DNA of 63,112 nt, counting the filler, from Atractiella rhizophila (Eukaryota), in assembly GCA_021432655.1 (NCBI GenBank). It is 6 parts of 6 records of this genome, joined end to end, with 100 filler letters (N's around TTAATTAATTAA, not from the genome) between each part and the next. Parts side by side here need not be neighbours in the genome. Positions count along the whole stretch, not along the records: positions 13,606 to 24,638 come from MU271980.1; 5 more parts are not named here. One strand, 5' to 3'. Within the stretch, counting starts at the first letter, position 1, and every line of letters begins with the position of its first letter. Of this stretch, positions 9,854 through 60,200 are shown piece after piece. The notes under the pieces were generated by a model that was not told the DNA's origin, searched no databases, and saw only the letters and a program-made list of their open reading frames with translations. A program made the translations under genes and the position numbers.

Positions 9854-12800
9854 ATGTCGCTCCCAGTCCCGTCGACGTCGAAGCTGCCTCCTCTGCATGC
9901 GCCAGTGAAGGAAGTGGCGGACAAATGGACGCTGCTGCCCTCCTTCCTCTCAACCAAGGGACTCGTCAAACAGCATCTCGACTCGTTCAACTACCTCCTC
10001 GACACCGAGCTGCCCCTCATCCTCCGCGCCAACTCCACCATCACCTCCGACGTCGACCCCTCCTTCCTCTTCCAGTACCTCGACATCTCCGTCGGCCAGC
10101 CCGAGCGCCCCGACGTCGAGAGCGTGGACCGGAGCATCACGCCGCACGAGTGTCGTCTGCGGGACATCACCTATGCGGCCCCCATATACGTCTCGGTGCG
10201 CTACACTAGGGGCGGGAAGAACGTGATCATGCGCGGGGTCAAGATTGGGAAGATACCGATCATGCTCAAGTCGTCGCATTGCATCCTCAACGGAAAGAGC
10301 GAATCCGAACTCGCAAGGATGACAGAGTGCCCCCTCGACCCCGGCGGATACTTTATCGTCAAGGGCACCGAAAAGGTCATCCTCGTGCAGGAGCAGCTGT
10401 CCAAGAACAGGATCATCGTCGAGCACGATGCGAAGAAGGGCGCGGTGTTGGCCAGCGTGACCAGCTCTTCCCTCTCGAGAGGAAGAGCAAGACTTACGTC
10501 GTCAGCGCCTCCAAGGCTGGCAGTCCTCCGCTCTTATATCTCCGACACAACAGCATAGGAGACGACGTGCCCATCCCTCTCCTCCTGCGCGCGCTCGGAG
10601 CGACCTCCGCCTTCGAGATCGTCTCCATCGTCTGTGGACCGAACGACAACCTGAGGCGAGCGTTTGAACCCAATTTGGCGTGTCTGGGATGGGAAAGGTT
10701 GCAAGACGCGGAAAGGCTGTTTGGAGTGGATTGGATCTCGCATAAAGCGGAGGTTGGGAGGTGCGGGAAGTGGGAGGAGGGATAAAGTGGAAGAAGGCTT
10801 GGAGGTCTTAGCGTCCGTGGTATTGGCGCACCTCAAAGTGGAAGGGCCAGGGTTTAGGTCTGAGGAAGAAGGCACTGGCGATCGGGATCATGGCTCGACG
10901 CGTCCTCGAATGTTTGGAGGGAGGAGAGACGGACGACAGGGACTATGTAGGGAACAAGCGGGCTCGAGTTGGCGGGACAATTGATGAGTTTGTTATTCGA
11001 GGATCTCTTCAAAAAATTCAACCACGACCTCAANNNNNNNNNNNNNNNNNNNNNNNNNNNNNNNNNNNNNNNNNNNNNNNNNNNNNNNNNNNNNNNNNNN
11101 NNNNNNNNNNNNNNNNNNNNNNNNNNNNNNNNNNNNNNNNNNNNNNNNNNNNNNNNNNNNNNNNNNNNNNNNNNNNNNNNNNNNNNNNNNNNNNNNNNNN
11201 NNNNNNNNNNNNNNNNNNNNNNNNNNNNNNNNNNNNNNNNNNNNNNNNNNNNNNNNNNNNNNNNNNNNNNNNNNNNNNNNNNNNNNNNNNNNNNNNNNNN
11301 NNNNNNNNNNNNNNNNNNNNNNNNNNNNNNNNNNNNNNNNNNNNNNNNNNNNNNNNNNNNNNNNNNNNNNNNNNNNNNNNNNNNNNNNNNNNNNNNNNNN
11401 NNNNNNNNNNNNNNNNNNNNNNNNNNNNNNNNNNNNNNNNNNNNNNNNNNNNNNNNNNNNNNNNNNNNNNNNNNNNNNNNNNNNNNNNNNNNNNNNNNNN
11501 NNNNNNNNNNNNNNNNNNNNNNNNNNNNNNNNNNNNNNNNNNNNNNNNNNNNNNNNNNNNNNNNNNNNNNNNNNNNNNNNNNNNNNNNNNNNNNNNNNNN
11601 NNNNNNNNNNNNNNNNNNNNNNNNNNNNNNNNNNNNNNNNNNNNNNNNNNNNNNNNNNNNNNNNNNNNNNNNNNNNNNNNNNNNNNNNNNNNNNNNNNNN
11701 NNNNNNNNNNNNNNNNNNNNNNNNNNNNNNNNNNNNNNNNNNNNNNNNNNNNNNNNNNNNNNNNNNNNNNNNNNNNNNNNNNNNNNNNNNNNNNNNNNNN
11801 NNNNNNNNNNNNNNNNNNNNNNNNNNNNNNNNNNNNNNNNNNNNNNNNNNNNNNNNNNNNNNNNNNNNNNNNNNNNNNNNNNNNNNNNNNNNNNNNNNNN
11901 NNNNNNNNNNNNNNNNNNNNNNNNNNNNNNNNNNNNNNNNNNNNNNNNNNNNNNNNNNNNNNNNNNNNNNNNNNNNNNNNNNNNNNNNNNNNNNNNNGAC
12001 GAGCTGACCATGCACACGACCCACCTCGAGATCGAGCCTTTCACCCTCCTCGGCGCCGTCGCCGGCTTGATCCCCTATCCACACCACAACCAGTCTCCCC
12101 GAAACACATATCAATGCGCCATGGGCAAACAGGCGATGGGGAGCATCGGATACAACCAGCTCAATAGGATCGACACGCTGATGTACCTCATGGTTTATCC
12201 TCAGCAACCTATGGTGAAGACGCGGACTATCGAGATGGTTGGATTTGATAAATTGCCGGGAGGACAGAATGCGATTGTTGCCGTCATGAGCTATTCGGGT
12301 TACGATATCGAGGATGCGCTCATTTTGAACAAGAGCAGTTTGGATCGGGGGTATGGCAGATGTCAAGTGTTTAGGAAGCATGGTACGATCCTAAAGAGGT
12401 ATCCCAATGGAACGTACGTTTCTCACTTATCATCAGCCATCTCTTCTCTCTCAGTTTCATTCTGAATGGAACAACGCTGATAACTTGGACAATGTAGACA
12501 CGATCGCCTTGCAGATCCCCCAAAGGACGAAAATGGAAAGAATCTCGAAAAGTGGACCTCCATCGAAGGTGATGGGCTCGCTCACGTCGGTGCCAGAATC
12601 CTTCCCGGACAAGCTTACATCAACAAGCAAACACCCTCCAATGCCAACTCCACAGAAGCCATCACCGATCTCGCCTCCACAACCTGGAAGAATGCGACCA
12701 TGAGCTACCGAGGAGCGATCCCCGGTTACGTCGACAAGGTCATGATTTCGCAGGGAGAGAACGAGGGTGTGACGGTGTTGAAGGTCCTCATGAGGCAGAC

Positions 12801-13505: not shown

Positions 13506-13605
13506 NNNNNNNNNNNNNNNNNNNNNNNNNNNNNNNNNNNNNNNNNNNNTTAATTAATTAANNNNNNNNNNNNNNNNNNNNNNNNNNNNNNNNNNNNNNN
13601 NNNNN
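13506..13605. other. Artificial contig spacer N44-TTAATTAATTAA-N44
   Basis: All-frame stop linker at 13550-13561 between N runs. Identical spacers at 24639-24738, 38082-38181, 46682-46781 and 60065-60164. Confidence 0.97.
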
Positions 13606-14030: not shown

Positions 14031-16393
14031 ATGTCGACTTCAGTAATCCTTCTCCTCACATTCCTTTCCCTTTTTTCTCTCGTTGACGCTCACTCCTCCA
14101 ATCTCGCCAACACCAATCGCCTGCATGCCAAGCTTCGGATGGAGCGCAGGCAGAAGTCCTCTTGCGTACGGAGGAACGAGACTTCGGCAGTGTCCATCTC
14201 TACTCCCAAGTCCTCCTCTGGGGTCTCCGGAACGACCCTCGTGGATGCCGAGGTCACTTCTCTCGGAAAGAAAGGCAGAGTAGCGGTTAAGCAGGCTGGG
14301 ACCTTTGTGCCACAATCGCTCAAGAAGTCTAGCAATAGCAATGGTGGACAGTGCACAATCAGTGTTTCGTCCAAGGTGAGTGTTCTCTCATTACTTCACG
14401 ATAAACGTGGGAACGGGAGCGGATGGAGTTGCGATTTTCCTCAGCACGGTAATTACGTGATCGGTTGACTTTGCTCTTTATTGTTTTCCCTAGACGAACA
14501 AAGCCATCCAAGCCTCTGTCAAGAACTCCGCTCAGAACTGCGAGGACGCAGCAAAGGCAACCGTTCAAAGTGACGCTGGTAAGTCCTTTTTCATATGCTG
14601 CGGGTTGTCAAGTCCGATCCTCATGGCTGCCACTTGTGACATGTGTGCGCAGAAGGACTTTTGGGATGCTATCGAATCGGATTCTTGGATATGACCAACC
14701 GTCAGTTTGGAGCTGAACTCTCCGTCTGGAACGCTGGGTCTCAACTCTCTTCTTCGGACCTATCCAAGGCATCCCTCCAGCTCTCATGGTCGAACGGCAC
14801 TAAGAACTTAGCCACCGCTCCCGGATCTTTCGCAACTACCGACGAATCTTCTGGTTCCATCTCGAAAGTAGGAAGCTTTCACTTTGTCTCCGACCTCCCG
14901 GCGTCGTTCAGCTCCTCCTCCGATCTCGCGGACCTTACCCCTTCACTCGCCGCAGCCGGAGTCGACCTTTCCAACGTTCTCGGACTCGTCGATGTTACCA
15001 GCTTGAACAACACCCTGCTCGCGGATTCCAAGTGGGGTCTGTACGACAAACAATTCGTCGTTGAGCAAGAGAGCACCCTTACCCGATTCGTCCGATTCGT
15101 CAAGAGGAAGTTCGTCGACCTCTCCAACGGTGCTCAAGATGACTCTACGAAGGAGGACTCTGCTTCTTCCACCGATTCGGTCGACAAATCTTCTTCGTCC
15201 GAATCAGTAGCAGAGGAGACGAAATCCACTAAGTCGTCTGCCGCTGCTGAGACTAAGGCTGCGGCGAAGGGCGATTTGGGAGGCTTCCTCGATCAGGCCA
15301 ACTCGCAAGCTGGAGCTGATGCTACGTCGACTTCCAAGGCGAGCAAAGCGACGGAGACTTCCTCTGCCAGCGCAGAGGACAGCGCTTCCTCCACCACTTC
15401 ATCTGCTCAAGCCAAGGAGACAAAAGGAAACAACAAAGGGAATAGCGGCAACAGCGGTAAGAACAACAGCGGCAAGGACAACACCGGCAAGAACAACAAC
15501 GGCAGCAACAACAACGGTAACAGCAACACGCAGATCATCGTTTCGGACAGTTCTTGCACCGTCATTGTCACCGATTCTGGCATCGTTATTTCGGATGGAG
15601 TCATTGTCAGCAGTGGGACTGGAGCTGCAGGTTTAACCATCACCAACGGCATTGTCATCACGGAAACCGTCACGGAGACCGTTACCAGCTCCGAATCGAA
15701 AAGCACTGATACCACCTCAAGCGAGAAGGGGAAGACGACAACGACTGAAGACTCGACCTCGACTTCCACCAAAGACACCTCGTCTGCCGAAGCGACCACC
15801 ACCACCACCTCCTCCGATGCTAGTTCGACTGGAGGAGTTGGAGTCAACGTAGTTGGATTCGGCACTTCCGTTGGTGCAGATGAAGTCTCCAGTGTTCTTG
15901 CCAGTGCGACTGCTACTGCCTCAAGCGCAGATTCGACGACTGTCATTGAAGGAACTAGTACCAGTACTTCGGACGATTCGTCGTCGACGACTGAGACCCC
16001 TTCTTCAACGACTACCGGTACTGTTCAGGGAGCTTTGGGAGCGGGAACTTCGTTAGCTGATACGACGTACGTCCCATCCCTCTGTCCGGGATGACTTGAC
16101 GATTGAACAATGTCTACAGTGCGAGCTCTACTAGCACGCCATTCCAATTGCCTGGAAGGCAGTTGCAGGTTCTTCCCATTGGTTTGGGAGTTTTCGCTGG
16201 TGTTTCCGTGCTCGCTTTGGCGGTATGTTTTCTGCTTATCCGAGTTCGAAATGCCGAACTGACGACTGGGCTGTAGATTGTTGGAGTAGTGACTTATGAG
16301 AGGAGGAAGTACAGGAGGCAATTCCGTCTGAGACGGGAACAGGAACAGGCGTCCGCTGGATTGAGGGGAGGGATGACTGAAGTTAGGATTTAA
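14031..16393 (+). CDS. Ser/Thr-rich mucin-like type I membrane (cell-surface) protein
   Basis: Signal peptide MSTSVILLLTFLSLFSLVDA, long S/T-rich ORF 14643-16094 with an N/G/K repeat, and spliced C-terminal exons giving FQLPGRQLQVLPIGLGVFAGVSVLALA|IVGVVTYERRKYRRQFR (TM plus basic tail). TAA at 16391-16393. Confidence 0.8.
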
Positions 16394-16802: not shown

Positions 16803-17819
16803 ATGCAACGAGCCCTCCTGTCAACCTCAAAGCATGTTGCAAAGGCAGCTTTCACGCGAGCCGGAGCTAGGAGGAGCATAGGGATGGGAGCGCAGAGTGC
16901 AGATACCCCAGGAAAGAATACGAAGTCGTTGGTCGTTGGCAGTGGTTTGCTGGTTGGCACGCTGGCGCTTGGAACGCTTTTCTCGTCTTCTGGGAAGGAG
17001 AAATTGAAAGGTGAGCACTCATGTTCATTCCTTTAAAGGCTGTTAGAGCTACAGCGTAAAATGGGGAATGTGGTTGATTGGTCATCGTTCGGCTCTCCAT
17101 AACTTGACCAGTTACCAAGCGATAATATGTGCTTTGATGTCGCCCACAAACCATACTTGATTGCTGACACCTTTCACCAGACGCAGCAAATTCGTCCCAA
17201 CTGTCATCAACAGCTGAAAAGCTCAAAGACGAAGCTCAATCCCTTGCTTCTCACGCCGTCGACTCCTCTACTGCTTCTAACGCCGAGGGTCACTCTTCAG
17301 AGGAAGAGGAGGTGGATCCTTCGCAGGCAGCTTTCAACCCGGAGACCGGAGAAATAAACTGGGACTGCCCCTGCCTAGGTGGGATGGCACATGGACCGTG
17401 CGGCGAGCAATTCAAAACCGCTTTTTCGTGCTTCGTCTACTCAGACAAGGAGCCGAAAGGGATGGAATGTGTCGAGGCCTTCACAGCCATGCAGGATTGC
17501 TTCAGGGCTCATCCAGACGTCTACGCTGCCCGTGAGCCTCTCCTTGTCACCTGGCCGTCAGGGAGAGGTTTCTCATACGTCCTCCATTTGACGAACGATA
17601 GATGATTACGAAGACGACGAAGAGGAGGACATTGAGTTTGCGATCCGAGAAGCAGAGTTGGCAACAAGGGATGGAGAGGAGCCTGCTCAACCACGGTACG
17701 TCGTTTCACCCTTTCAATGGAGATGTGCTGACTGCTGACGCTGCCTCCTTGTTCTCTTCAGGACGCCTTCATCATCTAATTTGAGAGACTCGGCAGAGTC
17801 TACAACACATGAAAAGTGA
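16803..17819 (+). CDS. MIA40: Mitochondrial intermembrane-space import oxidoreductase Mia40
   Basis: Presequence plus TM segment, then [35 protein letters not shown]...[16 protein letters not shown] (CPC and twin CX9C). Three introns. Confidence 0.95.
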
Positions 17820-18079
17820 TCATACTGCATCCTCATCATATATGCTTCCTTGTAATCACCATTCAAACTTTCAAGTTGTTTTTGCTTGAAATCGGATTGC
17901 ACGATTTGTCAGCCCTCTGCTCGCACTACAAGGTGTCGTAAATTATAAAGCAATCTCCACTCTCCCTACTTAAGAACTACTGATATTCTACTACCTCAAG
18001 TGAACCCAGTGAGGCGAACTTTTGAGATGCGAATTCGATGCGTCAAATAAGAAATCTTGTACCAAGGTTGATGCAATGT

Positions 18080-20134
18080 TCAGAGAATAGAACTGCGAGA
18101 AAACCGTAAATCAGGCTCTTCAATGAGAGACGTAGACAAAGGACGTACGTCAATTCTCTGTCGTATTTTGGATGAATAGACGTGTGGTTCGCCTATTTTC
18201 TGCTCAGTCTTGACCATGACATTATGATGAGAAACATACGACTCCCTCGACGCGGTGATACGCGTTCAAGTTCTTGTGAAGGGTGATTTGGAACAAGCTC
18301 GAACCTCCTTGCCTGGATTACGTTCGCTGAGCAGCGGAACAGAAGGGCAGAGGGGCAAACAAACCTGGCAGTGATCACAGAGGAGGCAAGGAAGAAGACC
18401 CATTTCCTGTACCATTCCTCTCCGTACTTCTCAACCACCTTGTCCTTGTTGGAGAGCCAGCTATGAACCGCATCGTCAAAAACTATTCTAGATCAGTCAA
18501 AAAAAGTACTTCTTATACCACCTGTTCAACGACGTAAATTAGTCCTGACCCACTTATGAACCGACGGACGGCAAACTCACCTCCACAAAGTAGCAGAGTA
18601 GTGAACACCCAGAACATCAATGTTCTTAACCTCGAAACCAGCAGCCTCAAGTTTGGTGATGACCCATCCGAGAGAACAGGAGGCGTCGGCACCAGGGAAC
18701 ACGTATTTGTTCTGCCAGTCTAACTCAGATCTTTGCTGCGAGGCCAAGGATAAACACACCATAAAGAGGCCCCAATTCAAATCCTCATACTGCCAGGAAG
18801 GACGGAGACCTGCAACTTGGAAGACAAAGGTTCCATCGTCGTCCAAGAGATCGTAGACCTGCTTGAGGAACGTTCCATATCGCCTGATTCCTACATGCTG
18901 TACCAGATGGCAAACGCTAAGTCCAAGTCTACGGAACACAAAAAAGATGAGGAATGGCAACGGACCTCTGCCATTTCCAAGCTCACAATCTTCGTAAACC
19001 TATTCTTGGGCTCGGCGGGGATTTCTCTATAATCCAGGCAGAGAACCCTCGCTTTTTGTGGATTGACACCGTTTTCCTTAATGCGAGTATTGCCAAAATG
19101 GGCTTGCTCCTTCGCCAACGTAACTCCCGTTGCATCGCAGTCATAATTTTTCGCAGCGTAAGCTGTGAGCGTTCCCCATCCACATCCGATGTCCAAGAGC
19201 TTGTCTTCAGGCTTCAGATCCAACTTTTGGCACACAAGAGCGAGCTTGTTATCCTGTAGCTGTTCGAGAGACTCTTCGACGGAAGCGTCGTTGATCACTC
19301 CGGAGGTATAAATCATACGTGGACCCAAGAACCACTCGTAAAAGTCGTTACCGCCTATTCCAGCAAGTACGAATAGTTAGACTAGAAGGCAAGGAGAAAT
19401 CAGTAGAACATACGGTCGTAATTGTCTCTAATTTGTTTCTCGTCTTGCTCAGAAGTGTGGAAGAGGACGTCAGGGATGAGGTTCTTCAGAACGTATTCAA
19501 GGAGCTTCCACGTCATTGGGAACGATACAAAGTCATGTCTGTACTCCAAGACGTCGAGGCAGTCACCTGTGCAATTCAGGCAGAACCATATCAGTGAACA
19601 CCGAAAGCGTTAGAGAAAAGACTAACCCTTGAAGTCCAGTTTTCCCTCAAAGTAAGCATCATGCAGAACCTGATAGGGTATTTTTGTTTTCCCGTTGTAC
19701 TTCTGCCTCAATTCCGCGTCCTTGATATCAATATAATGCTCTAGATCCTTTCCTGGGAGCTTGCACTTCTCGTTGATTCTTGGACCATAATTCGACATAA
19801 ACATCCAGTAACCCAACGTGATTGGCCCTCCGAGGGTGAAGAAGAGAATCCACCACGACCACTTGAACCCGAAGTACGGTACCCAGCCCGTTAATATCGC
19901 AGGAACAACGGTGAGTAAAAGGGCAAGGTGGAGGTTAGAAAAGGACCCATTTCCCTCTGCAGGCAGAGGAGGGTTGGGAATCGTTTTTGCGTTCGAAGTT
20001 CGTACTCCACAATCCGCCATCTATGGAATAGTTATTGGGAAGCTTCTCATGAGAATTTGAGGAAAATAAACGGAACTCACCTTCGTCGTCGTTGGGGAGA
20101 ATTTTTTGGTCTCTTTATTATTCTGAGTGCACAT
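18080..20134 (-). CDS. Sphingolipid C9-methyltransferase (CFA-synthase family)
   Basis: PAEGNGSFSNLHL N-terminus with two TMs, LGPRMIYTSG, SAM motif LLDIGCGWG, SLEMAE, WGLFM..KYVFPGADASC, LHKNLNAYHR. Multi-exon; ATG at 20134. Confidence 0.92.
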
Positions 20135-20291
20135 ATTTGTCTCCCTGCCACGTGGCGTTCTGTCACGGTCACGATCAAGCAGACAAGTTTTCAACGACCA
20201 CAGCAAACTCCGGCAGAGCTCATGATAAAGCAGGTCTTATAGGATTCATTCAGGGATTCATTACGAGAGACTGAGGACATCGCAAGGAACT

Positions 20292-20500
20292 ATGAACTCT
20301 CTTTACACCATAGCCCAGCGACAAACATCCAACATCTCTTCTGACCTCTCTCTGCTCGAGCAAACAATCCAATCAGGTTCAAAGACCACTTCGTTATATG
20401 GGCAAATTAATGCTTCTTTATCTGGATTGTCGCGGACGGTAGATGACTATGAAGGTCTTGCACGGCGGGAAGTGGGCGACGAGAAGCGTCAGAAAGCCAG
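20292..20500 (+). CDS. BOS1: Golgi Qb-SNARE Bos1/membrin, first exon (the rest lies in the mirror-reversed block)
   Basis: MNSLYTIAQRQ...GQINASLSGLSRTVDDYEGLARRE. Continues in frame into the sequence read backwards from 23643. Confidence 0.92.
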
Positions 20501-20852
20501 GGGGGAACAGGGGGAAGCCTCTTTCTCACAGAACGGCGGGCCGATTATGACAACAGTAGGGGAACGGCGTTGCCTCTAGAGCTTTGGTCGCCAAAGAATC
20601 GTGGGAAGACATTAAGCTCGGCCTTCTTTCCTCGAACTTGCTCTGAGGTCAACGCGAACAGGCAATGGAATCCGGCTGTATTGGTAACTGTTCACAGGCG
20701 TGGTTAGTAGGGGTCTTTAAAGGGGGATTAACTCCGCGCGTACGGGACAGGGGCCGTTTTAAGCTCTCGCGTTAAGGGTTAAAGGCCACGTGTTTCTGGC
20801 GAGTGTATTCCTGTCTCGTCCTCAGCCGCTGAGGGAAGAGCGTCCGTCGTCC

Positions 20853-22571
20853 TACCTGCTTAGCGAACGGTTCTACTGTTGAGTATGGAGGTAGGAGAAG
20901 CAGTGGGTTGGACTTCGTCCAGTCCGTTTACAGCAGAAGAGGCAGTAGGCGGTGAAGGAGGAAGAGAGAGTTCTTATGCCAGTGTTGCAGTCTCATGTGG
21001 AACGACGGCTGGGACTATTTCCCTTCAAGTTCGCTGCGCAGCTCTTTTGAAAGTGCCGAAGTCTTCAGTGGAAAGTGGGTGACTCGCTAGCCCCTCACTC
21101 TCTTCGCTCACTTGTTTCGTAGCTTAACAACGCTGTAGGAGGTCGACGCTTCCTAAGCTTTGGCATACATCTCTACTGATTCTACGATTGAACCCTAGGG
21201 ATGCAGATACGGTTCTTACACTTCCTCCAGTACCTCTAGCAGCTGTCCAACGTCGGCCGAGAGCATCACACGCTGGTTAACCGGTACATGCCACAGCTAC
21301 GCGAAGTCTGGAACTTCTTCGCTAAACAGCAAGAGAGGGGCTGGGAGAATCCTCTGCAAATGGAGTAAGGAGTAGTTGGAACCTACGTTACCAATACCGT
21401 AATAGGGTCATTCAAATGCTTGGTGAAGTGACGTTGATTTCACTTACGACTTCGGAGATTTGTTATCAGCGTAAGTGACCGGACGGAATGGGACAGGGAG
21501 AGGAGAGCTAGGGTTGCTTGTATGAGAGTAAGTAAGCTGAACGAATGCGGTGCTGCTGAAGGGGTCTCTAGTTTCTTGAGGCAGAACACGCGTTCTCGGT
21601 TCCTTAATGTCCTGGCGAGGGAAAACAGCTACCTATAGGTTGTGTTCGTCTCGAGAAGGAGAGGCGTCCGAAAGCTCTTCGCCTAAAGGGTGAGAGACGG
21701 GATGGAGTCTTGCGTCACCTCACACCTGGGTATGAGAAGCTGCTGCGGAGGAGCCTCGCTCGTTACCTTCTCTTCCGCCTCGACCTCCAGACCTACCTAC
21801 TTCGCTTTCGACTCTTTGTTCTGTAGCAGGAGTAGAGCGAGCCTTTAGTGCAGCAGAAGAGCTTTCTTAGTTTCCTATGCCTGCGCTAGCGTTTCCGTTA
21901 AGCTACGCAGTAAAGACGAAACTTGCAGTCTCACTAGACCTTCGAGGGGTTGCGCCTCCTGTTACGACTCTACGAGGCTAGACAAGAACCTTTGCTTACG
22001 GAGGACCGCGACTTCCCTCGCAGCCAAAACTTCCCCTACCGCTTCCGCTTTTCTCAAACCTAGTGCCTAACCTAACACGTCGGAGAGGTGTGCGAAATAT
22101 TTGTGCTATGCCACTTTCACAAGCAAGTAGTACCTCCGCCCTTGAGCATAGAGCTTAGCCGGTTTATACCAGATTTCGTCAAACAGGAAGGAAACGAAGA
22201 CGAGACTTCAACCGATTGTAACTTAGGTGTCTTAGTAAGAACGTGTTACCATGCTGAATATATGCTTAAGTCCGTACTGGAGAGGGGACAAGAATATTGG
22301 TACGACTGGGACAAACTTTCGAGCTCGGCTTATAGTGCCGCAGCCTTAAACCCGATTGTTCAGAACGCGTGGAGTACAGAGCAGTTGACTTGACAGCAGA
22401 CCCTAATTCGAACAAGATCTCCTCTTTTTCATATGTCTTCGACAACTGGCTGAGGCTATACGAACAAGTTACTGACCGCCACCTGCAGATCGACGAGTCT
22501 TCAACCAGCTGGACTACACCGCACAGCTGCTTCTTCTCTATAGTTACAACTCCGCATTTTTTGTTCTGACT
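20853..22571. CDS. UDP-glycosyltransferase (GT1), ~519 aa, encoded by the left-to-right complement (true minus strand once the block is flipped)
   Basis: Complement reads ILFVTQPEAGQANVVF...CGPIL...DIVLISLGNH...RVIWKL...WITDWIVQ...VKVFVHHGGGNSYLESAKYGLKQIILAQWYD...GVGIWANK...TGA. Introns at 21409-21467 (GT-AG), 22180-22231 (GT-AG) and 22273-22320 (GC-AG). Exons sum to 1560 nt. Confidence 0.93.
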
Positions 22572-22998
22572 ATGTGCTATGGATGGTATCCTGTTCTTCT
22601 CAGGTACAGACAGAAATAGTAGAGTGGTGTATCCGGGACTACAAATATGTTAAATACGACGAACATACGATGTCACTTTCGTAGCTGCTTCTTCTTCCGC
22701 TTATCCTTCTTCCCCTCATTAAACTCGTACGGTTTCTTCTTATTCTTCTTCTTTCCCTTTTTCCAAGCGCGAGGCAATAAGGTTACCACAATGCTGTGAC
22801 TTGGCGCCAGAGAGTGTCACTGGGTGCAGGTGTGAGTAACAGAAGCCGATCAAACACTCAAGCGCATTGCCATAGTCATACCTCACTTTATTCAATCAGC
22901 AACGTTGGGCAATTTTTAGTACGTGAGCAGTTCTTTTCTTAATTTGTTGTGCTATATAGGTGCTTAGTGGATCCAGATTTATTGCCTTCGCCTTATTT

Positions 22999-23643
22999 AG
23001 TAGGCTCCATAAACTCCTACTTTTTCTTCCTATGCTTTCACGGATAACGGGGTTGATAGTTCTAATTGTTCAGAGGAGAGCAAGCTGCAAGCTACTTGCT
23101 TTAACATAAGGCTCTATTAGGATCCCACAAACGTCGTAGCTCTTCTGCGGCAGCTCAGGGACAGGTGTATAAAGTGAGTCGTACAAGACCCTTTCGAAGC
23201 ACATCTCCCTTTTCCTTCGCGATATGTTTGGAAACTCGTACAGGGAGACGAGGCAGTACAAGGGATCATAACGGACAGGAACCCGTTCCATGTATAGCTC
23301 GCGACGTGGCCACCTTCTCTCCTTGCTCAAAAGTAACTCGCGTATTAAGCAAGCCGGCAGGTTGTAGCACCCTCCTCGTAATTTCCATCGACACACGGGC
23401 GCTTTCACGGGTGCTGACAATCACAACCTCTTGCCTGAGAGACGACAGGCCCTTCTCCTGCGCTTCCGCCTCCTTCATACCTTATCGCTCAGAGCGAGAA
23501 ACAAACTGAGGTAAACAAACTCTCAGAGTTCCGCTCAGAAGTCACGGCTTTTTAGCAGTGCCTGTGCGAAACGAGCAGACACAGGCCTATAGGTAATGAT
23601 GCGCAGGTATGGTAACAACCCTTATCCTCCTTGTATGTTGTAG
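22999..23643. CDS. BOS1: BOS1 remaining exons, read right-to-left without complementing
   Basis: Reverse reading gives RML|RAKRVRDDFSALK...ALNENSFL...LDMYLAQGQAILGNMTEQRDMLK|GTRRRLLDAANTLGLSRNTISFIERRTRGDLLILIVGAIGTFVSFFFILKYLG*. Introns at 23637-23578 and 23230-23160; total CDS 723 nt (240 aa). Confidence 0.93.
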
Positions 23644-23668
23644 NNNNNNNNNNNNNNNNNNNNNNNNN

Positions 23669-24367
23669 CTTTGCTGTCCATGCCCGAAAGAACCGTCCTT
23701 AAGTTTGGTAACGATTTGGGTGAGGATTTCTGTGTTCAAAGGTGCCTGGACCTCTCTTCCGTCGATGCTTTGGCTCTTCCCCAGACCCAACCGATCATAG
23801 GCGAATACGGTGTAACCTAACAACCGTTCGCCTCAACCTCTTGCCAAATACAAACGAAGCGAGCATACCCTGAGAGGTGGCATAGTCGATGTAGTTGTAT
23901 TTCTCGGGCTGATAGGCTATTTCGTATTCTGCTTCCACCTCCCATGCAGCATGCACCAGCACTTGAATCGTGTCCGGATTCTTCGCTGCTGTGTATGCAG
24001 GGGGATAACAGAACTTTCCAAAGTGAGTAAATGTGGCTGTGGTGTATTCGGATCCCTACTCCTCGTTGAGCACACAATCCCTGCTAAAAGAAGAAGCTAC
24101 AGTGACGGGGTTGATCACGCCTCCAAAGATGTCTTCAAGCAGCTTCTGTGCTTCAGCTTGGGTGGTCGGAAGAGTCAAGTCAATATCGAAGCGTTCATAC
24201 GTGGCTTCTACGTCGAAGTAGAACTTGGGAACTACATCAGTATCCTTCTCTTGATGCGTAGAAATACCTACAGAGTTGCAGTTTGCTGTCTGGTGTTGCT
24301 GAGTGGTCGGCGCACTGATGGCGCCGAGGATGAAAGATACCAGCGATACTGTTTTGATGGAATGCAT
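23669..24367 (-). CDS. Secreted alpha/beta-fold hydrolase (3' end lost at gap)
   Basis: Signal peptide MHSIKTVSLVSFILGAISA, NYIDYA, and GYTVFAYDRLGLGKSQSIDGREVQ, typical of fungal AB-hydrolase-1/6 proteins. Confidence 0.8.
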
Positions 24368-24738
24368 TTTATTGGCGCTTTATGATGATGAGATATGTCG
24401 CTCGAGTGATGACATTCTCCATATCTGTCGACGACCTTTTATATCTGCGCGTTCAGCCAACCCCATGAACTGTTTCACAGAGCTGTGAAGTGTGTAGGGG
24501 GCGGGTCAGAATCCCTAACGGCTCTAGGTAACTTGCAACCTGTTGTAGCGTAGAAGTATCTTGATTGAAAACTGCATCTCCGTGAGCATTCTTTGCCCGA
24601 GAGGAGAGTCCGTCAAGTCTTGAGACTCCGACGAAATANNNNNNNNNNNNNNNNNNNNNNNNNNNNNNNNNNNNNNNNNNNNTTAATTAATTAANNNNNN
24701 NNNNNNNNNNNNNNNNNNNNNNNNNNNNNNNNNNNNNN

Positions 24739-25510
24739 ATTCTTGACTGTGCTGGCTTCATTGAGGCAATAATCCCCTTCTTCGTCACTTTCTAATAGCC
24801 TAAGAGCCATACATGTAGCCTTGAAAGTCTCATGGACAGTTCCCTCGACTGTTCGGATATCCTCAAAAGATTTTGGGCTGGCGAGCTGATGCAGAAGCAA
24901 TCAGAGATAGAATAACTCCCCTTGTGACAGCCAACATAGTAGATACGGCCAATAGCTTCTTGTCTCTCCTGGATTTTCCAAGAGCATGAGCCCGACTTCC
25001 AGGTAAGGAATTGAGGAGCCTTAGGATAGGTAAGGTCTTCAGTAATGTTGGGGTTTTCCCGACAGTAGGTGAAGCAGTCTGTCAACATTGTTTTGGTGAT
25101 GTTGTTCCTGCCAAGAATGTTACCCAGGGATTTATCCGGAGGATTAAAGATTAAAGGTCACAGAACGCCGATCCGGAAGGGGTACTGCCAAGGGAATAAC
25201 CACAGGAAAATGCTGGTGTAAATTAAAGCGGAAAATCCAGTAACAGGCTATAAAATTTTATCAAATAAGCCCTAACATCATCTCAGGAGTAGTTCTAAAC
25301 ACTTCAGAAGATCCAATGAATCTAGCAGCCAAGTACTCTTGAATCTCATCCATCACCCTAATATCACTTCGGGCGCTATAAGGACAGCTTGTGCCTGATC
25401 CTTTCCTTTGTAGATGTATTTGAACAGGTATTTGATTGATTTTGATGGAGATGCATAGCTCACATTGATATGGGCTGTAAACTGACGAAGAATGTCAGCA
25501 TTAAATGGTC
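24739..25510 (-). mobile_element. Helitron Rep/helicase fragment, degenerate
   Basis: PFNADILRQFTAHINVSYASPSKSIKYLFKYIYKG, AIGRIYYV, and LLLHQLASPKSFEDIRTVEGTVHETFKATCMALRLLESDEE. Stops and frameshifts present. Confidence 0.9.
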
Positions 25511-28500
25511 TCTCTGGGCTTTCTCCTGGGTTGCCATGATGAGATCCCAGTCATTGCAGTCTGAGGCTCCGTTTAGCACGTAGTTTCTCTGGCACCAGTC
25601 CTTCATGGATTGGACCGCTCTGGCAATGTTCATTGCGTTCTGTCTTCCCATTTGTGTACGAGTTTGATGTATCAGTCCATGCCTTTCTCGAAGTTAGAGG
25701 AAAATGGTCTGTTGTCCCTTGCCATAGACCCGTTCGATGATTTTGCGCATTTTGTCGTCAGATAGTATTAGTTGGTTGCCTGAATCAAACTTGATTTCTA
25801 TGGACTTATCCAGCCCGTACTCTGCTGAGAGTCGTTTCCACACTGTTGGCAAGTGGGCAAGGATATAGGCATGCATTTTCTAACGGATGTTCTTTCTGAG
25901 ATCTGGTACGTCGAAGTCGATCTGGAGGATGGGGATGGACTCCTTATTGATGACGGATTACTTCCAGTCCTTCTGAGATTCGCTTCCTTGATCAGTCTCC
26001 TCTGGTGTGAGTGCTCCGACTCTGTAGATGCGTCCGAGTTGGAGTTGATTCTGATGGGACTTGTTCATGGCTGGCGTGTCTTATGTTCTTTCTCTTTTTC
26101 CGCCTTCTTTTCCTCTCTTCCCCTTCACCCCCGCTCGAAGAGAAGTTGGAGGTGTGGTGCTTCTTTTTCAAGGTGGGTTTCTTCTTCATAGTTGTTGCCT
26201 CTAGGCCATGTGCGTTTCCCCTCATTTGCCTGCTGCCACCCATGAGTAGTCTCGGATGTTTCTGCTCCTATTCCTGCCTCACGGCAGTTACACTGGCCGA
26301 CAGAGGTGCATGTTGCTACCTTTGTCTTTCTTTCGCCAGGCGAGGTGATTCTGGGCCATGGTTGGTTGGGTGGCTTGCATAAAGTTCTGGTAGGCCGGGA
26401 AGAATTGGGCCTGAGTTGGAGGGGTGTTGTTAGGGTTCACAAAAGGCGGAATGGAGCGCGCTTCATGTAGGCAACTAGCTGGGAATCCTCTGATGTGGGC
26501 ACCCGGTGACAGGAGAGGCTGTATGGGTGGTACAGGTAGAGTTGTGTCACCCCTTCCTCCCCCTCATTGTACTTGGAATTCTGGGCTATGGTGGTTTTGA
26601 CCGGTGGATTTATTTATGATTCTGATGGTCTCCCTGGCTAGTATTAGCTTTGCCAATTGGGTGGTTCCGGTTCGATTCTCTCTGGTTCCTTCGTAAAGGT
26701 TCCAGTTAAGCGTAGGTATGTGATGGTATTGTCCTTCGCTGTTAAGGGGGATCCCTACTAGTTGAGCCATAGGCACAGGGTTCATGGTTGCATGTACGGC
26801 GGCAGTTTAAGGGACATTGAGGAATCCCCTAGGGTGAGGGTTTCCAATGGGTTGTTTGATACTGCGATCACCACACTTAGTGTAGGTACTCCGACCATAT
26901 GGAGCTGCTTACGAGGTAAAGGGATGGTGAGGAATCCTCCCCAAAGTGAGGGTTTCAGACTGGGGTGTACGGCACTACAACCATCACACCTTAGCAGAAG
27001 CACTCCCACCATGTGGAGCTGCTTACTGGGTAAAGGTGTCGTTGCAAAGAGCCCCCATGAAGGCCTGGCAACCTGCCCTACGGTCTCACAACAGAGAAAC
27101 GCCTGTATATGAGCTCAGCATTAGTCCCTGTCCCCTTTTGGATCCTATGGTAATTCTTGTCAAAGGAGATATGGAGGACTTGGATCTGTTGCGCAGATAA
27201 TTTCCGCTCCTCAATATGGCGGTTAAATTTGTCTGGTTCGGTTGGCTCAAGGATGTGTTGCATTGCTTCTACTGCGTTCTACTGTTCCTCCTCCCTCTCT
27301 TCTTCCTCTCTCGTATCCTCCATCACTTCCCTTTTTACTTCCAGGCCCAGTTCTTCTGGTGCATGCCCATGTTCTACACCTAATATGCCCAATTCCTTCC
27401 ATCCTACTTGTGCCGTTTCTACTGTTGGTTGTCTAAAGTTGACTCTTTTGTGGGGTTGTAAGCTCCAGCAGCCTAACCTAACCCTCATAATCAAAGCACT
27501 CCAGCAATTGAACCACCAGAACAATATCAGTACAATGACATACATCCAAATTGATGGGATATGGAATAGATGCCATTTGGTTTCCTAATTCATGGGCACA
27601 AGTGGACTGAGCAAGCGAGAAGAGGCGATCAAGGAAAATAACTACCTTTCACCTCTTTTTTCTGAGCATAAGTAAAAATCTGCTCATGCAATTTTAGTTT
27701 TCTTTCTGTGCGACCACAGTGCTCACCTTGTAAGCATCCACAGGGATTCCTATGACAATCAAATCTTTCTCTTTGACATCCATCAAGGCACTTCTGATCA
27801 CAAATTCACTTGCAATTCTTTAAAAAGAAGACAGCACACTGCATGGTATTAAACTTAGAGGCTGCAAATCTGCAGATCATGTTGATCTCGTTAAGCAAAT
27901 ATTATAGGAGAAGAAAGAAACCCTGTTTTCATTCATGATTCATCCTGCCATCTCATTTGAGTTGCAATTCCAGAACATTACTCTTTTACCACAAGTTCTC
28001 ACTTTTTCTTATCTTACTTTTCTTGAAGATTATATAAAGCCTCTGAAGAGCGAAATAAAGCATGATTACATTCCACAATAACAACAGGTTATGAGCCTAA
28101 TGAGCTCATAGACACAAAACAGCACCTACCAACCAAGTACAAAAGAGACAATGCACCAATGTATCCAATCCCCACTAGCAGCCCCTTGCAACAATGTTCG
28201 AGTCCTTCAATGCATTCAAGATCGAGCTGCTGAAGATGAATAACTGGGTGGTTAGACTATGTCATTGGGACAAAGAAAAGACCTATACCTGAAGTGGTGA
28301 AAGGTGAAGATAGCAAAGACATCACCATTGCGAATAAAGAGGCACTGGACACATAGGACACCAAGGACTCGAAGGCCCAAACAAGAATCAAGCTGACGAT
28401 TTAGACAGCGAACTGATCCATTTGGTGGGAGCAATGACAGTGGTGGATATGTGGAAACAGCTATGCACGGTGAAAGAGGCGAAAGCGATCATGCGGATCC

Positions 28501-36900: not shown

Positions 36901-38181
36901 AGAACACTGACAATGTTGCCATCAATCCTCAATGTATAAGATGCAGCATGCAGAATCTTCAATGTATTGTATCACGGTATCTTCATGTGTGGCTGATTAG
37001 TGACATGGAAAAGGAAATATAAGGGAGCACCCACTCAGATTCCTCATTCTTCCCTCTTCAACTTGCTAATTGCAGTACCATCCTCATTGTTCCTCTTCAT
37101 AATGTCAACAGACATTCTAACTCTCTTCCCTAATACAGACATTGATAATTGGTGGAATGGTTGGACTGTAGTTGGTAATGAGGGAACGCCTTATCATTTG
37201 ACAGAGGGCTCAAGTACCCATTTATCTAGCTAGGTGGCCTGTAATCTATACTTTAGAACAAGTAGGAACAAGTTTGGAAGTGAGTAAAAGGATATTGGAG
37301 TGCATATCTTTGATTCTCATCGTCCAAAGCTACTTCTGAATCATGCATCGTACCGAATTGGATCAGAGGGCGTTGGTAGTTGGATTGTAGTCGGATCGTA
37401 AACCGAAGAGAATTTGAAAGTAACATTCGGGTTTGATGTCCATCCCTACTCATGACGGATGAAAGAATCGTGAATTCTTACCTCTAAAAGCAATCCGTTC
37501 TTGGCATGAGTTATAAAACGCACTTTTGAGCCTTTATACCTCCCTCACCAGGAGCATTGAAACGAAATGAGTTACACCATCTTATTGCATATGCTTGTGC
37601 CTTTCTGAAGCTTCGAGGAATTTTATTCTGAAGGGGGTAAAAATATGTTCATACTGGACTCGATACCTCACAAGAGTCACAGTAGGGTTTAAGGGGCCAT
37701 GCCCCTTGCGAGTGGGTTGGGAGGCCTGAGGGACGAAGACTTCAACACACTTGTAATGCTCCTAAGTTTGAGGTGAGGACAATCTAGCATGTGTTCCCCA
37801 TATACTTACAGCAGTATGCAAATAATTCGAGTGGAATATGCTGGATAAGGTACTGACGATGCAGACAGACATACTGGAACCAAACTGCATTGGCAATGAC
37901 TTTCTTTATTTTCGGGTGCAACGCCTTGACACTTTCTCTTCAGAATCGGGAACTCTTTGAGTGTTTAAATGATTGTAGCTGAGCTTTGATGGGGTGACCG
38001 GAACACTTACGCCTCCTACTTTCTGGGAGCATTCACTTCTCTTAGTATCCTTACCTTACTGTGGTGTGTGTTCAAGTTTTCNNNNNNNNNNNNNNNNNNN
38101 NNNNNNNNNNNNNNNNNNNNNNNNNTTAATTAATTAANNNNNNNNNNNNNNNNNNNNNNNNNNNNNNNNNNNNNNNNNNNN

Positions 38182-46681: not shown

Positions 46682-46781
46682 NNNNNNNNNNNNNNNNNNN
46701 NNNNNNNNNNNNNNNNNNNNNNNNNTTAATTAATTAANNNNNNNNNNNNNNNNNNNNNNNNNNNNNNNNNNNNNNNNNNNN

Positions 46782-60064: not shown

Positions 60065-60200
60065 NNNNNNNNNNNNNNNNNNNNNNNNNNNNNNNNNNNN
60101 NNNNNNNNTTAATTAATTAANNNNNNNNNNNNNNNNNNNNNNNNNNNNNNNNNNNNNNNNNNNNTTCTCCAGCAAACAGAGTATCGACCTCAATTCAAAC

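What the first reader, a model, noticed from the sequence alone, without database searches (positions are those of the whole stretch)
20501..23643. Mirror-image DNA: a 3.1 kb block written backwards hides most of BOS1
Seen: BOS1 stops making sense at 20500. Joining 20500 to base 23643 and reading right-to-left without complementing gives ...GCC AG|G ATG TT[GTATGT..60 nt..CAG]A CGA GCA. This completes a 240-aa Bos1 with SNARE motif, C-terminal TM, two canonical introns and a TGA ending at 22999. TpA and ApT frequencies are swapped. The block ends at a 25-N gap, and its left ~250 nt look noisy. Established: no known enzyme reverses strand polarity without complementing. Inference: a gap-filling software error (25-N spacers are typical of long-read gap fillers such as PBJelly). 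Any annotation of this assembly would show BOS1 truncated, and other gaps may hide similar blocks.
Basis: partly seen in the sequence, partly recalled or inferred. Interest (0 to 1): 0.85.

Follow-up and report, generated by a model that had tools for sequence, protein, structure and literature searches.

The report
Assembly block written backwards, uncomplemented
About 3.1 kb of this fungal genome assembly was written in reverse order without complementing, almost certainly by software, which hides most of the BOS1 gene and a whole glycosyltransferase gene; it is a data error, not biology.

Summary
Window 20498-23643 (3146 nt, ending at a 25-N gap) is real fungal DNA printed 3'->5' without complementing.

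- **Composition.** The direction-sensitive dinucleotides are swapped only here. The block's forward-versus-reversed likelihood score is -49.4, against 62.2 +/- 14.9 for 100 other windows of equal size.
- **BOS1.** Reversing the block turns a 69-residue BOS1 fragment into a 239-aa Bos1. It aligns end to end with Mixia osmundae BOS1, has two GT..AG introns and stops with TGA at 23001->22999.
- **Second gene.** A GT1-type glycosyltransferase gene also appears only in the reversed reading.
- **Independent reads.** Public contigs of four runs all leave the printed sequence at 20497. The two DNA runs continue with 30 letters that are the exact reverse of 23643..23614. The two spliced (RNA) runs continue with the same letters minus the predicted 60-nt intron.

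The cause is half of a reverse-complement operation, most likely when a sequence extending the left contig into the gap was appended. PBJelly fits the 25-N gap but is not shown. No other reversed block lies in this window.

Verdict: artefact, low biological interest, useful for assembly quality control.

The parts
20292..20497 (+). BOS1 exon 1 as far as it is printed correctly (ATG at 20292; 206 nt)
   Evidence: Frame. It is 59% identical over 69 residues to Mixia osmundae BOS1. All contigs of the 4 runs leave the window after 20497.
20498..23643 (.). Block of 3146 nt written reversed without complementing (equal to the unreversed complement of the opposite strand)
   Evidence: Swapped dinucleotide asymmetries. 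Likelihood score -49.4 against 62.2 +/- 14.9, z -7.5. The loose ends of public contigs equal the reverse of its right end. Genes appear only in the reversed reading.
23638..23643 (.). Last 6 nt of BOS1 exon 1, read right to left
   Evidence: Loose ends behind 20497 in X1-X4; model.
23578..23637 (.). BOS1 intron 1, 60 nt, GTATGT..CAG when read right to left
   Evidence: The spliced contigs X3 and X4 skip exactly these letters.
23231..23577 (.). BOS1 exon 2 (347 nt), read right to left
23160..23230 (.). BOS1 intron 2, 71 nt, GTTTGT..CAG when read right to left
   Evidence: Best-scoring GT..AG choice against P0002. No RNA evidence was seen for this one.
22999..23159 (.). BOS1 exon 3 with the SNARE region, membrane anchor and TGA (23001->22999), read right to left
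   Evidence: The V-SNARE_C domain of the aligned homologue P0002 lies at its residues 171-225.
20853..22571 (.). Second hidden gene, GT1-type (UDP-)glycosyltransferase-like, read left to right on the complemented letters, which is the minus strand once the block is turned. Exon 1 is 20853-21408, the intron 21409-21467 (GTAAGT..ATAG), and exon 2 starts at 21468 and is open to 22204. A 3' open frame runs 22308-22568 with its stop at 22569-22571. The join between 22204 and 22308 is unresolved.
   Evidence: Open frames; intron. A profile of 8 bacterial PF00201-positive proteins hits 2 of 71 reversed ORFs and 0 of 70 printed ORFs. The joined 431 aa score 33.6 bits over profile positions 28-371 of 454.
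20498..20852 (.). Far end of the extension (upstream region of the glycosyltransferase-like gene). After turning, it abuts the gap.
   Evidence: 5 homopolymer runs of 4 or more in the first 250 nt, against 1-3 elsewhere. Quality not verifiable.
23644..23668 (.). 25-N gap; the true missing stretch is much longer
   Evidence: The X3 contig carries 605 letters before 23669, and the 30 letters seen before 23669 are not in the block.
23669..24379 (-). Start of the right contig: 5' part of a minus-strand gene (no Pfam family) whose transcript runs on into the gap
   Evidence: ORF. CT..AC joints at 23814/23867 and 24054/24100 in X3. No Pfam hit.
18577..20020 (-). Left neighbour: CMAS-family (cyclopropane-fatty-acid-synthase-like) methyltransferase gene, printed normally
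   Evidence: ORFs. PF02353 at E 2.9e-33. Spliced contigs of X3 and X4.

Best explanation
The block 20498-23643 is a software artefact. In the organism, the DNA after 20497 runs as the printed block read from 23643 back to 20498.

A program that had to reverse-complement this stretch did only half the job. It either reversed a plus-oriented string or complemented a minus-oriented read without reversing it; the two give the same letters.

The most likely setting (inferred) is a contig-extension or gap-filling step. The left contig ended at 20497, a long-read-derived sequence extending it by 3146 nt into a scaffold gap was appended, the extension did not reach the right contig, and a minimal 25-N gap was left.

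Consequences:
- BOS1 (an ER-Golgi v-SNARE) appears cut off after 68 codons.
- A convergent GT1-type glycosyltransferase gene is invisible to any homology search.

Shown: the reversal, the junction and the hidden genes. Inferred: the processing step and the program.
For: - **Composition.** All three direction-sensitive dinucleotide ratios are swapped only in the block. The likelihood score is -49.4 against 62.2 +/- 14.9 in 100 other windows, with 15 consecutive negative 400-nt windows.
- **BOS1.** By tblastn, named BOS1 proteins match only residues 1-69 on the printed sequence and their full length on the turned one: P0002 E 1.6e-51, P0003 E 3.0e-54. The model of 239 aa shares 121 identical residues with P0002 and has no gap at the junction.
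- **Second gene.** A profile of bacterial PF00201-positive proteins hits only reversed-block frames, collinearly. That is 2 of 71 reversed ORFs, 0 of 70 printed ORFs, and nothing better than E 0.015 among 1258 ORFs of the printed window.
- **Independent reads.** In X1 and X2 (DNA contigs, one sample) the 30 letters behind 20497 are the exact reverse of 23643..23614. They occur nowhere in the printed window on either strand. In X3 and X4, whose joints have GT..AG or CT..AC ends and which are therefore spliced, the letters behind 20497 are the exon end followed directly by the start of exon 2.
- **Contig end.** Short-read graph contigs of X1 and X2 also end exactly at 20497, where two variants diverge (agreement 0.88). 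An original contig end there is therefore plausible (inference).
- **Gap size.** A 25-N gap fits a gap filler's minimal gap (passages in PMC3504050, and PMC6733440).
- **General knowledge.** No polymerase, recombinase or ligase joins DNA so as to reverse polarity without complementing.
Against: - The assembly's own raw reads and methods were not available, so the step and the program are not shown.
- The laid DNA runs differ from the window at some places (for example 7 letters in 1293 and 17 in 719). They may come from another strain or haplotype rather than the assembled sample.
- Only 30 letters of each loose end are visible. Direct read evidence therefore covers the junction, not the whole 3.1 kb; the rest relies on composition and the two genes.
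- No paper describing a reverse-only fault in any gap filler turned up.
- The same window also holds a 964-N gap and five 100-nt spacers that no filler touched.
Confidence: 0.93

Rival explanations
1. The reversal came from PBJelly specifically, which extended the left flank into an 'overfilled' or reduced gap and left its minimal 25-N gap.
For: In PBJelly, 25 N is the gap definition; reduced gaps keep their Ns, and flank extensions that do not overlap are described (passages of PMC3504050). It inflates short gaps to exactly 25 (passage of PMC6733440). The block is a one-sided extension that fails to reach the right contig.
Against: No source seen reports a reverse-only output from PBJelly. 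A 25-N gap is not unique to one program. The assembly's methods are unknown here. The 964-N gap nearby was left unfilled.
Confidence: 0.3
2. The reversal was made after assembly: by a home-made joining or patching script, at submission, or in later handling of the record or of this window. It was not made by a gap filler.
For: The record was clearly post-processed. Five 100-nt spacers of 44 N, TTAATTAATTAA and 44 N join pieces of about 8-13 kb. A hand-written 'reverse complement' that only reverses is a common slip (general knowledge).
Against: The block is joined to the left contig without a spacer, exactly at the base where the real sequence continues. The program therefore knew from alignments that this sequence extends that contig end. 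The other joins in the window use the 100-nt spacer, and all their flanks score forward.
Confidence: 0.06
3. The printed sequence is genuine DNA of the assembled strain, as an odd rearrangement or a true inversion.
For: None beyond the fact that it stands in the record.
Against: A true inversion is a reverse complement, and it would still be found by tblastn on the other strand. On the printed sequence both strands gave nothing beyond residues 1-69. Contigs of four runs continue with the reversed letters. The dinucleotide asymmetries of the block mirror those of the rest of the genome. No known enzyme makes such a join (general knowledge).
Confidence: 0.005

Closest known systems
Misoriented (inverted) contigs and gap-filler errors in draft assemblies, e.g. 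PBJelly 'overfilled' or reduced gaps (PMC3504050, passages seen)
   Same: A block next to a scaffold gap is in the wrong orientation. It is a one-sided extension of a flank that does not close the gap, and a minimal 25-N gap is left.
   Different: Ordinary misorientation is a reverse complement: it could exist as DNA and stays visible to BLAST. Here only the order of the letters is reversed, so the string matches nothing on either strand. The genes vanish from homology searches, and only the composition or a deliberate reversal reveals them. No description of this fault was found in four full-text searches.
Reversed, non-complemented sequences used on purpose as decoys in benchmarks (PMC11099658; only the search listing and the start of the abstract were seen)
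   Same: The same transformation is applied. Base composition and length are kept, and biological signal is removed.
   Different: Those are deliberate null sequences kept apart from real data. Here the reversed string sits inside a public-style genome record.
Bos1, the ER-to-Golgi v-SNARE of fungi (named BOS1 of Mixia osmundae, P0002/P0003, and Ceraceosorus guamensis, P0004)
   Same: The turned sequence gives a 239-aa protein that is collinear with them from first to last residue. It shares 121 identical residues with P0002, is strongly conserved over the homologue's V-SNARE_C region, and has a C-terminal hydrophobic anchor.
   Different: Nothing unusual about the protein itself; only its representation in the record is broken.
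GT1-family UDP-glycosyltransferases (Pfam PF00201, UDPGT)
   Same: The second hidden gene matches, over both halves, a profile built from 8 bacterial ORFs that pass PF00201's cut-off (33.6 bits, profile positions 28-371 of 454). It carries an HHGGGNS motif, which I recall as typical of the nucleotide-sugar site.
   Different: Pfam itself could not be run on it. The 3' exon join is unresolved, and its substrate is unknown.

Membership tests
Reverse-without-complement assembly artefact | Direction-sensitive k-mer asymmetries are mirrored relative to the rest of the genome | tested here: met
   TA/AT, AG+CT/GA+TC and AC+GT/CA+TG are all swapped. The block scores -49.4 against 62.2 +/- 14.9 (n = 100), z -7.5.
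Reverse-without-complement assembly artefact | Reversing the string restores interrupted or missing genes that no strand of the printed string encodes | tested here: met
   BOS1 is full length only after reversal. GT1-like gene: 2 of 71 reversed ORFs hit, against 0 of 70 printed ORFs.
Reverse-without-complement assembly artefact | Independent sequence data follow the reversed string at the junction | tested here: met
   30 of 30 letters behind 20497 in X1/X2 equal the reverse of 23643..23614. X3 and X4 show the same letters with intron 1 removed.
Reverse-without-complement assembly artefact | The assembly's own raw reads reject the printed order | not testable with these tools
   No whole genome or raw data of the assembly is held. 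The runs laid are coded public runs that may be another strain.
PBJelly gap-fill product | Residual gap of exactly 25 N beside newly added sequence | tested here: met
   The N run at 23644-23668 is 25 long. Tool behaviour is described in passages of PMC3504050 and PMC6733440. Not specific to this tool.
PBJelly gap-fill product | The assembly was in fact processed with PBJelly, and that program can emit reversed-only sequence | not testable with these tools
   Methods of the assembly are unknown. No report of such a fault was found.
Bos1 / V-SNARE_C (PF12352) SNARE | Full-length collinear similarity to named BOS1 proteins | tested here: met
   (E 1.6e-51 and 3.0e-54). (121 identical residues, global alignment).
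Bos1 / V-SNARE_C (PF12352) SNARE | V-SNARE_C domain | tested here: inconclusive
   Indirect only. P0002 has PF12352 at residues 171-225, and that stretch aligns to the model with high identity.
Bos1 / V-SNARE_C (PF12352) SNARE | C-terminal membrane anchor | tested here: met
   The last 30 residues of the model end in an uncharged, hydrophobic run of about 19 residues, read directly. No predictor was run.
GT1 UDP-glycosyltransferase (PF00201) | Significant match to the family profile over both Rossmann-like halves | tested here: inconclusive
   A stand-in profile of 8 bacterial ORFs that pass PF00201 gives 33.6 bits over positions 28-371 of 454. Its E-values refer to tiny local databases, and Pfam's own model was not run on the turned protein.

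The most novel reading that the evidence does not exclude
The fault is systematic rather than a one-off. The same program would have written reverse-only (or complement-only) extensions at many contig ends of this assembly, and of other public assemblies made with it. A class of genes would then be hidden from all homology-based annotation next to short fixed-length N gaps. They could be recovered in bulk with a simple forward-versus-reversed k-mer score.
Probability: 0.3. Interest if true: 0.4.

Novelty: not a real feature. Interest (0 to 1): 0.22.

Why it matters
It has no biological meaning: the organism has an ordinary BOS1 gene and an ordinary glycosyltransferase gene.

It matters for data quality. 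An essential-pathway SNARE looks truncated, and a second gene is absent from anything derived from this record, including annotation, gene-content comparisons and completeness scores. Standard checks do not see the fault, because the string has normal base composition and matches nothing on either strand.

A forward-versus-reversed Markov score separated the block from every other stretch of the window by 7.5 standard deviations. Such blocks could therefore be screened for cheaply across assemblies, particularly beside fixed-length N gaps.

Tried and rejected
- **Read cover of the block.** All 4 runs laid have zero depth in the bins from 20594 to 23449. The tool warns that a hole in contig cover proves nothing, so I do not count it as evidence; the loose ends are the evidence.
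- **Whole genome.** None is held, so other 25-N gaps of the assembly could not be scanned.
- **First read-laying run.** It was repeated on 17500-24638.
- **Metagenome scan with BOS1 exon 1.** 590 pattern matches, none a relative.
- **Search for an annotated truncated BOS1.** 1 hit among 3 candidates, the same 61%-identical P0001 and nothing identical. The claim about annotation stays untested. The 'longer' search also found no protein closer than 61%.
- **First profile test of the second gene.** It was flawed: I picked the longest frame across the locus midpoint, which did not match genome search' reported open frame in 6 of 9 loci (one of them, L084, could not be fixed). It gave no profile hit. 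It was redone with the frames that the genome search reported. L084 was dropped because its frame runs off the locus (644 of 827 aa), so 8 of 9 loci were used.
- **Is the gap really closed by the block?** The 30 letters that X1 and X2 show before 23669 score at most 11 of 30 against the block in any orientation, so it is not.
- **Is the block a copy of something else in the window?** blastn of the printed and of the reversed block against the rest of the window gave no hit.
- **Join between 22204 and 22308 in the glycosyltransferase-like gene.** It is either an intron pattern I could not fix or an indel error in the fill. It could not be resolved without a close homologue.
- **Literature.** Four searches found no report of reverse-only blocks in assemblies. 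The passages in PMC5938232 and PMC4580222 were irrelevant to it.
- **Earlier findings of this scan.** Nothing relevant.
Full report
**What is printed.** The window carries a frame that starts with ATG at 20292. For 69 residues it is 59% identical to BOS1 of Mixia osmundae (P0002, P0003) and 49% identical to a Ceraceosorus BOS1 (P0004). After about 20500 the frame runs on into sequence with no resemblance to anything and stops at 20579. A run of exactly 25 N lies at 23644-23668.

**Composition.** Reversing a string without complementing swaps TA with AT, AG+CT with GA+TC, and AC+GT with CA+TG, and leaves base content unchanged.
- In 20501-23643, TA/AT is 0.0595/0.0379, against 0.040/0.062 in the rest of the window. 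The other two pairs are swapped as well.
- I trained a strand-symmetric second-order Markov model on the rest of the window and scored the printed minus the reversed reading. The score is negative in 15 consecutive 400-nt windows from 20401 to 23201.
- Outside the block, 10 of 290 windows are slightly negative. Each is isolated, and the minimum is -2.57.
- Taken whole, the block scores -49.4. One hundred other 3146-nt windows score 62.2 +/- 14.9 (minimum 30.2), so z = -7.5.
- The flanks of every other N run in the window score forward, so this is the only such block here.

**BOS1 after turning the block.**
- By tblastn on the printed 19000-25000, the three BOS1 proteins match residues 1-69 only. 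The next best hits have E of 0.66 or worse.
- With the block reversed they match over their full lengths: P0002 residues 1-252 at E 1.6e-51, and P0003 residues 1-268 at E 3.0e-54. tblastn reads both strands, so a true inversion is excluded as well.
- The model has exon 1 at 20292-20497 plus 23643->23638, and intron 1 at 23637->23578 (60 nt, GTATGT..CAG).
- Exon 2 is 23577->23231, intron 2 is 23230->23160 (71 nt, GTTTGT..CAG), and exon 3 is 23159->22999, with TGA at 23001->22999.
- The protein has 239 residues, 121 of them identical to P0002 in a global alignment. The best-conserved stretch lies where P0002 has its V-SNARE_C domain (residues 171-225). It ends in a hydrophobic anchor.

**Independent reads.** A word search over 17500-26500 found two DNA-type runs of one sample (X1, X2) that hold 0.55 and 0.52 of the words, and others that hold less. 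I laid X1-X4 on 17500-24638.
- Every contig leaves the window at 20497.
- In X1 and X2 the 30 letters that follow begin GATGTTGTATGTT. They are the exact reverse of 23643..23614 and occur nowhere in the printed window on either strand.
- X3 and X4 show 12 joints with GT..AG or CT..AC ends that X1 and X2 lack, so they are spliced transcripts. Behind 20497 they read the exon end followed directly by the first letters of exon 2, which means intron 1 is removed exactly as modelled.
- The junction is therefore 20497|23643.
- None of the four runs covers 20594-23449.

**A second hidden gene.**
- Read left to right on the complemented letters, which is the minus strand of the turned block, open frames of 245, 248 and 87 residues follow one another at 20730-21464, 21461-22204 and 22308-22568.
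- A GTAAGT..ATAG intron at 21409-21467 joins the first two in frame.
- The second frame holds HHGGGNS, which I recall as typical of GT1 glycosyltransferases.
- To test this without handing changed sequence to a database tool, I fetched bacterial genomes through the neighbouring methyltransferase. I then located 9 places that pass Pfam PF00201's cut-off in 4 of 5 of those genomes and built a local profile from 8 of them. L084 was dropped because it is cut by the locus end.
- The profile hits 2 of 71 frames of the reversed block (E 2.4e-6 and 3.5e-6), with the N-terminal half in the first frame and the C-terminal half in the second. It hits 0 of 70 frames of the printed block.
- The joined 431 residues score 33.6 bits over profile positions 28-371 of 454. 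Among 1258 frames of the whole printed window the best hit is E 0.015. Among 1297 frames of the whole window reversed, only the two block frames hit.
- These E-values refer to very small local databases.
- The join between 22204 and 22308 is unresolved.

**The gap.** The right contig starts at 23669 inside a minus-strand gene with no Pfam family. The X3 transcript contig carries 605 letters before 23669. The 30 letters seen there are not in the block in any orientation, with a best score of 11 of 30. The fill therefore did not close the gap, and the real missing stretch is far longer than 25 nt.

**How it arose.**
- The printed block equals the reverse of the true plus strand, which is the same string as the unreversed complement of the true minus strand. 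Half of a reverse-complement operation was applied.
- The block is joined without a spacer at the exact base where the real sequence continues. The program must therefore have known from alignments that this sequence extends the left contig.
- Short-read graph contigs of X1 and X2 also end exactly at 20497, where two variants diverge. An original contig end there is plausible.
- This points to a contig-extension or gap-filling step; that part is inference.
- PBJelly defines gaps as 25 or more N, keeps Ns in reduced gaps, describes non-overlapping flank extensions (passages of PMC3504050) and inflates short gaps to exactly 25 (passage of PMC6733440). That fits but is not specific.
- Four full-text searches found no report of a reverse-only fault.
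- The record was also post-processed with 100-nt spacers, so a home-made script remains a minor rival.

**Verdict.** The feature is not biological. Its interest lies in quality control of assemblies.

Noticed in passing
window 13506-13605, 24639-24738, 38082-38181, 46682-46781, 60065-60164: Five identical 100-nt spacers made of 44 N, TTAATTAATTAA (a stop in all six frames) and 44 N. They join pieces of about 8-13 kb, so the record is a chain of small contigs stitched by a script. A separate 964-N gap lies at 11034-11997.
   Followed up: partly
window 18966-19352 (minus strand); loci L001-L080: One exon of the neighbouring CMAS-family methyltransferase (PF02353, E 2.9e-33) is 53-64% identical over all 129 residues to genes of Myxococcota, Polyangiaceae, Oligoflexia and Bacteroidota genomes. 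That is unusually close for a fungal-bacterial pair.
   Followed up: no
window 20498 and the letters behind 20497 in runs X1-X4: Two sequence variants diverge right after 20497 in the public runs: agreement is 0.88 between two contigs, and the first letter is G in X3 and T in X4. The differences appear to lie mostly in intron 1. This suggests two haplotypes or strains, and may explain why short-read contigs break there.
   Followed up: no
window 14640-16094 (+): A 484-residue open frame very rich in Ser, Thr, Asn and Gly (mucin-like, low complexity). It gives two of the isolated slightly negative windows in the direction score.
   Followed up: no
window 23669-24379 (minus strand): The gene at the start of the right contig begins with what looks like a signal peptide and has no Pfam family. 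At least 605 nt of its transcript lie in the unsequenced gap.
   Followed up: partly
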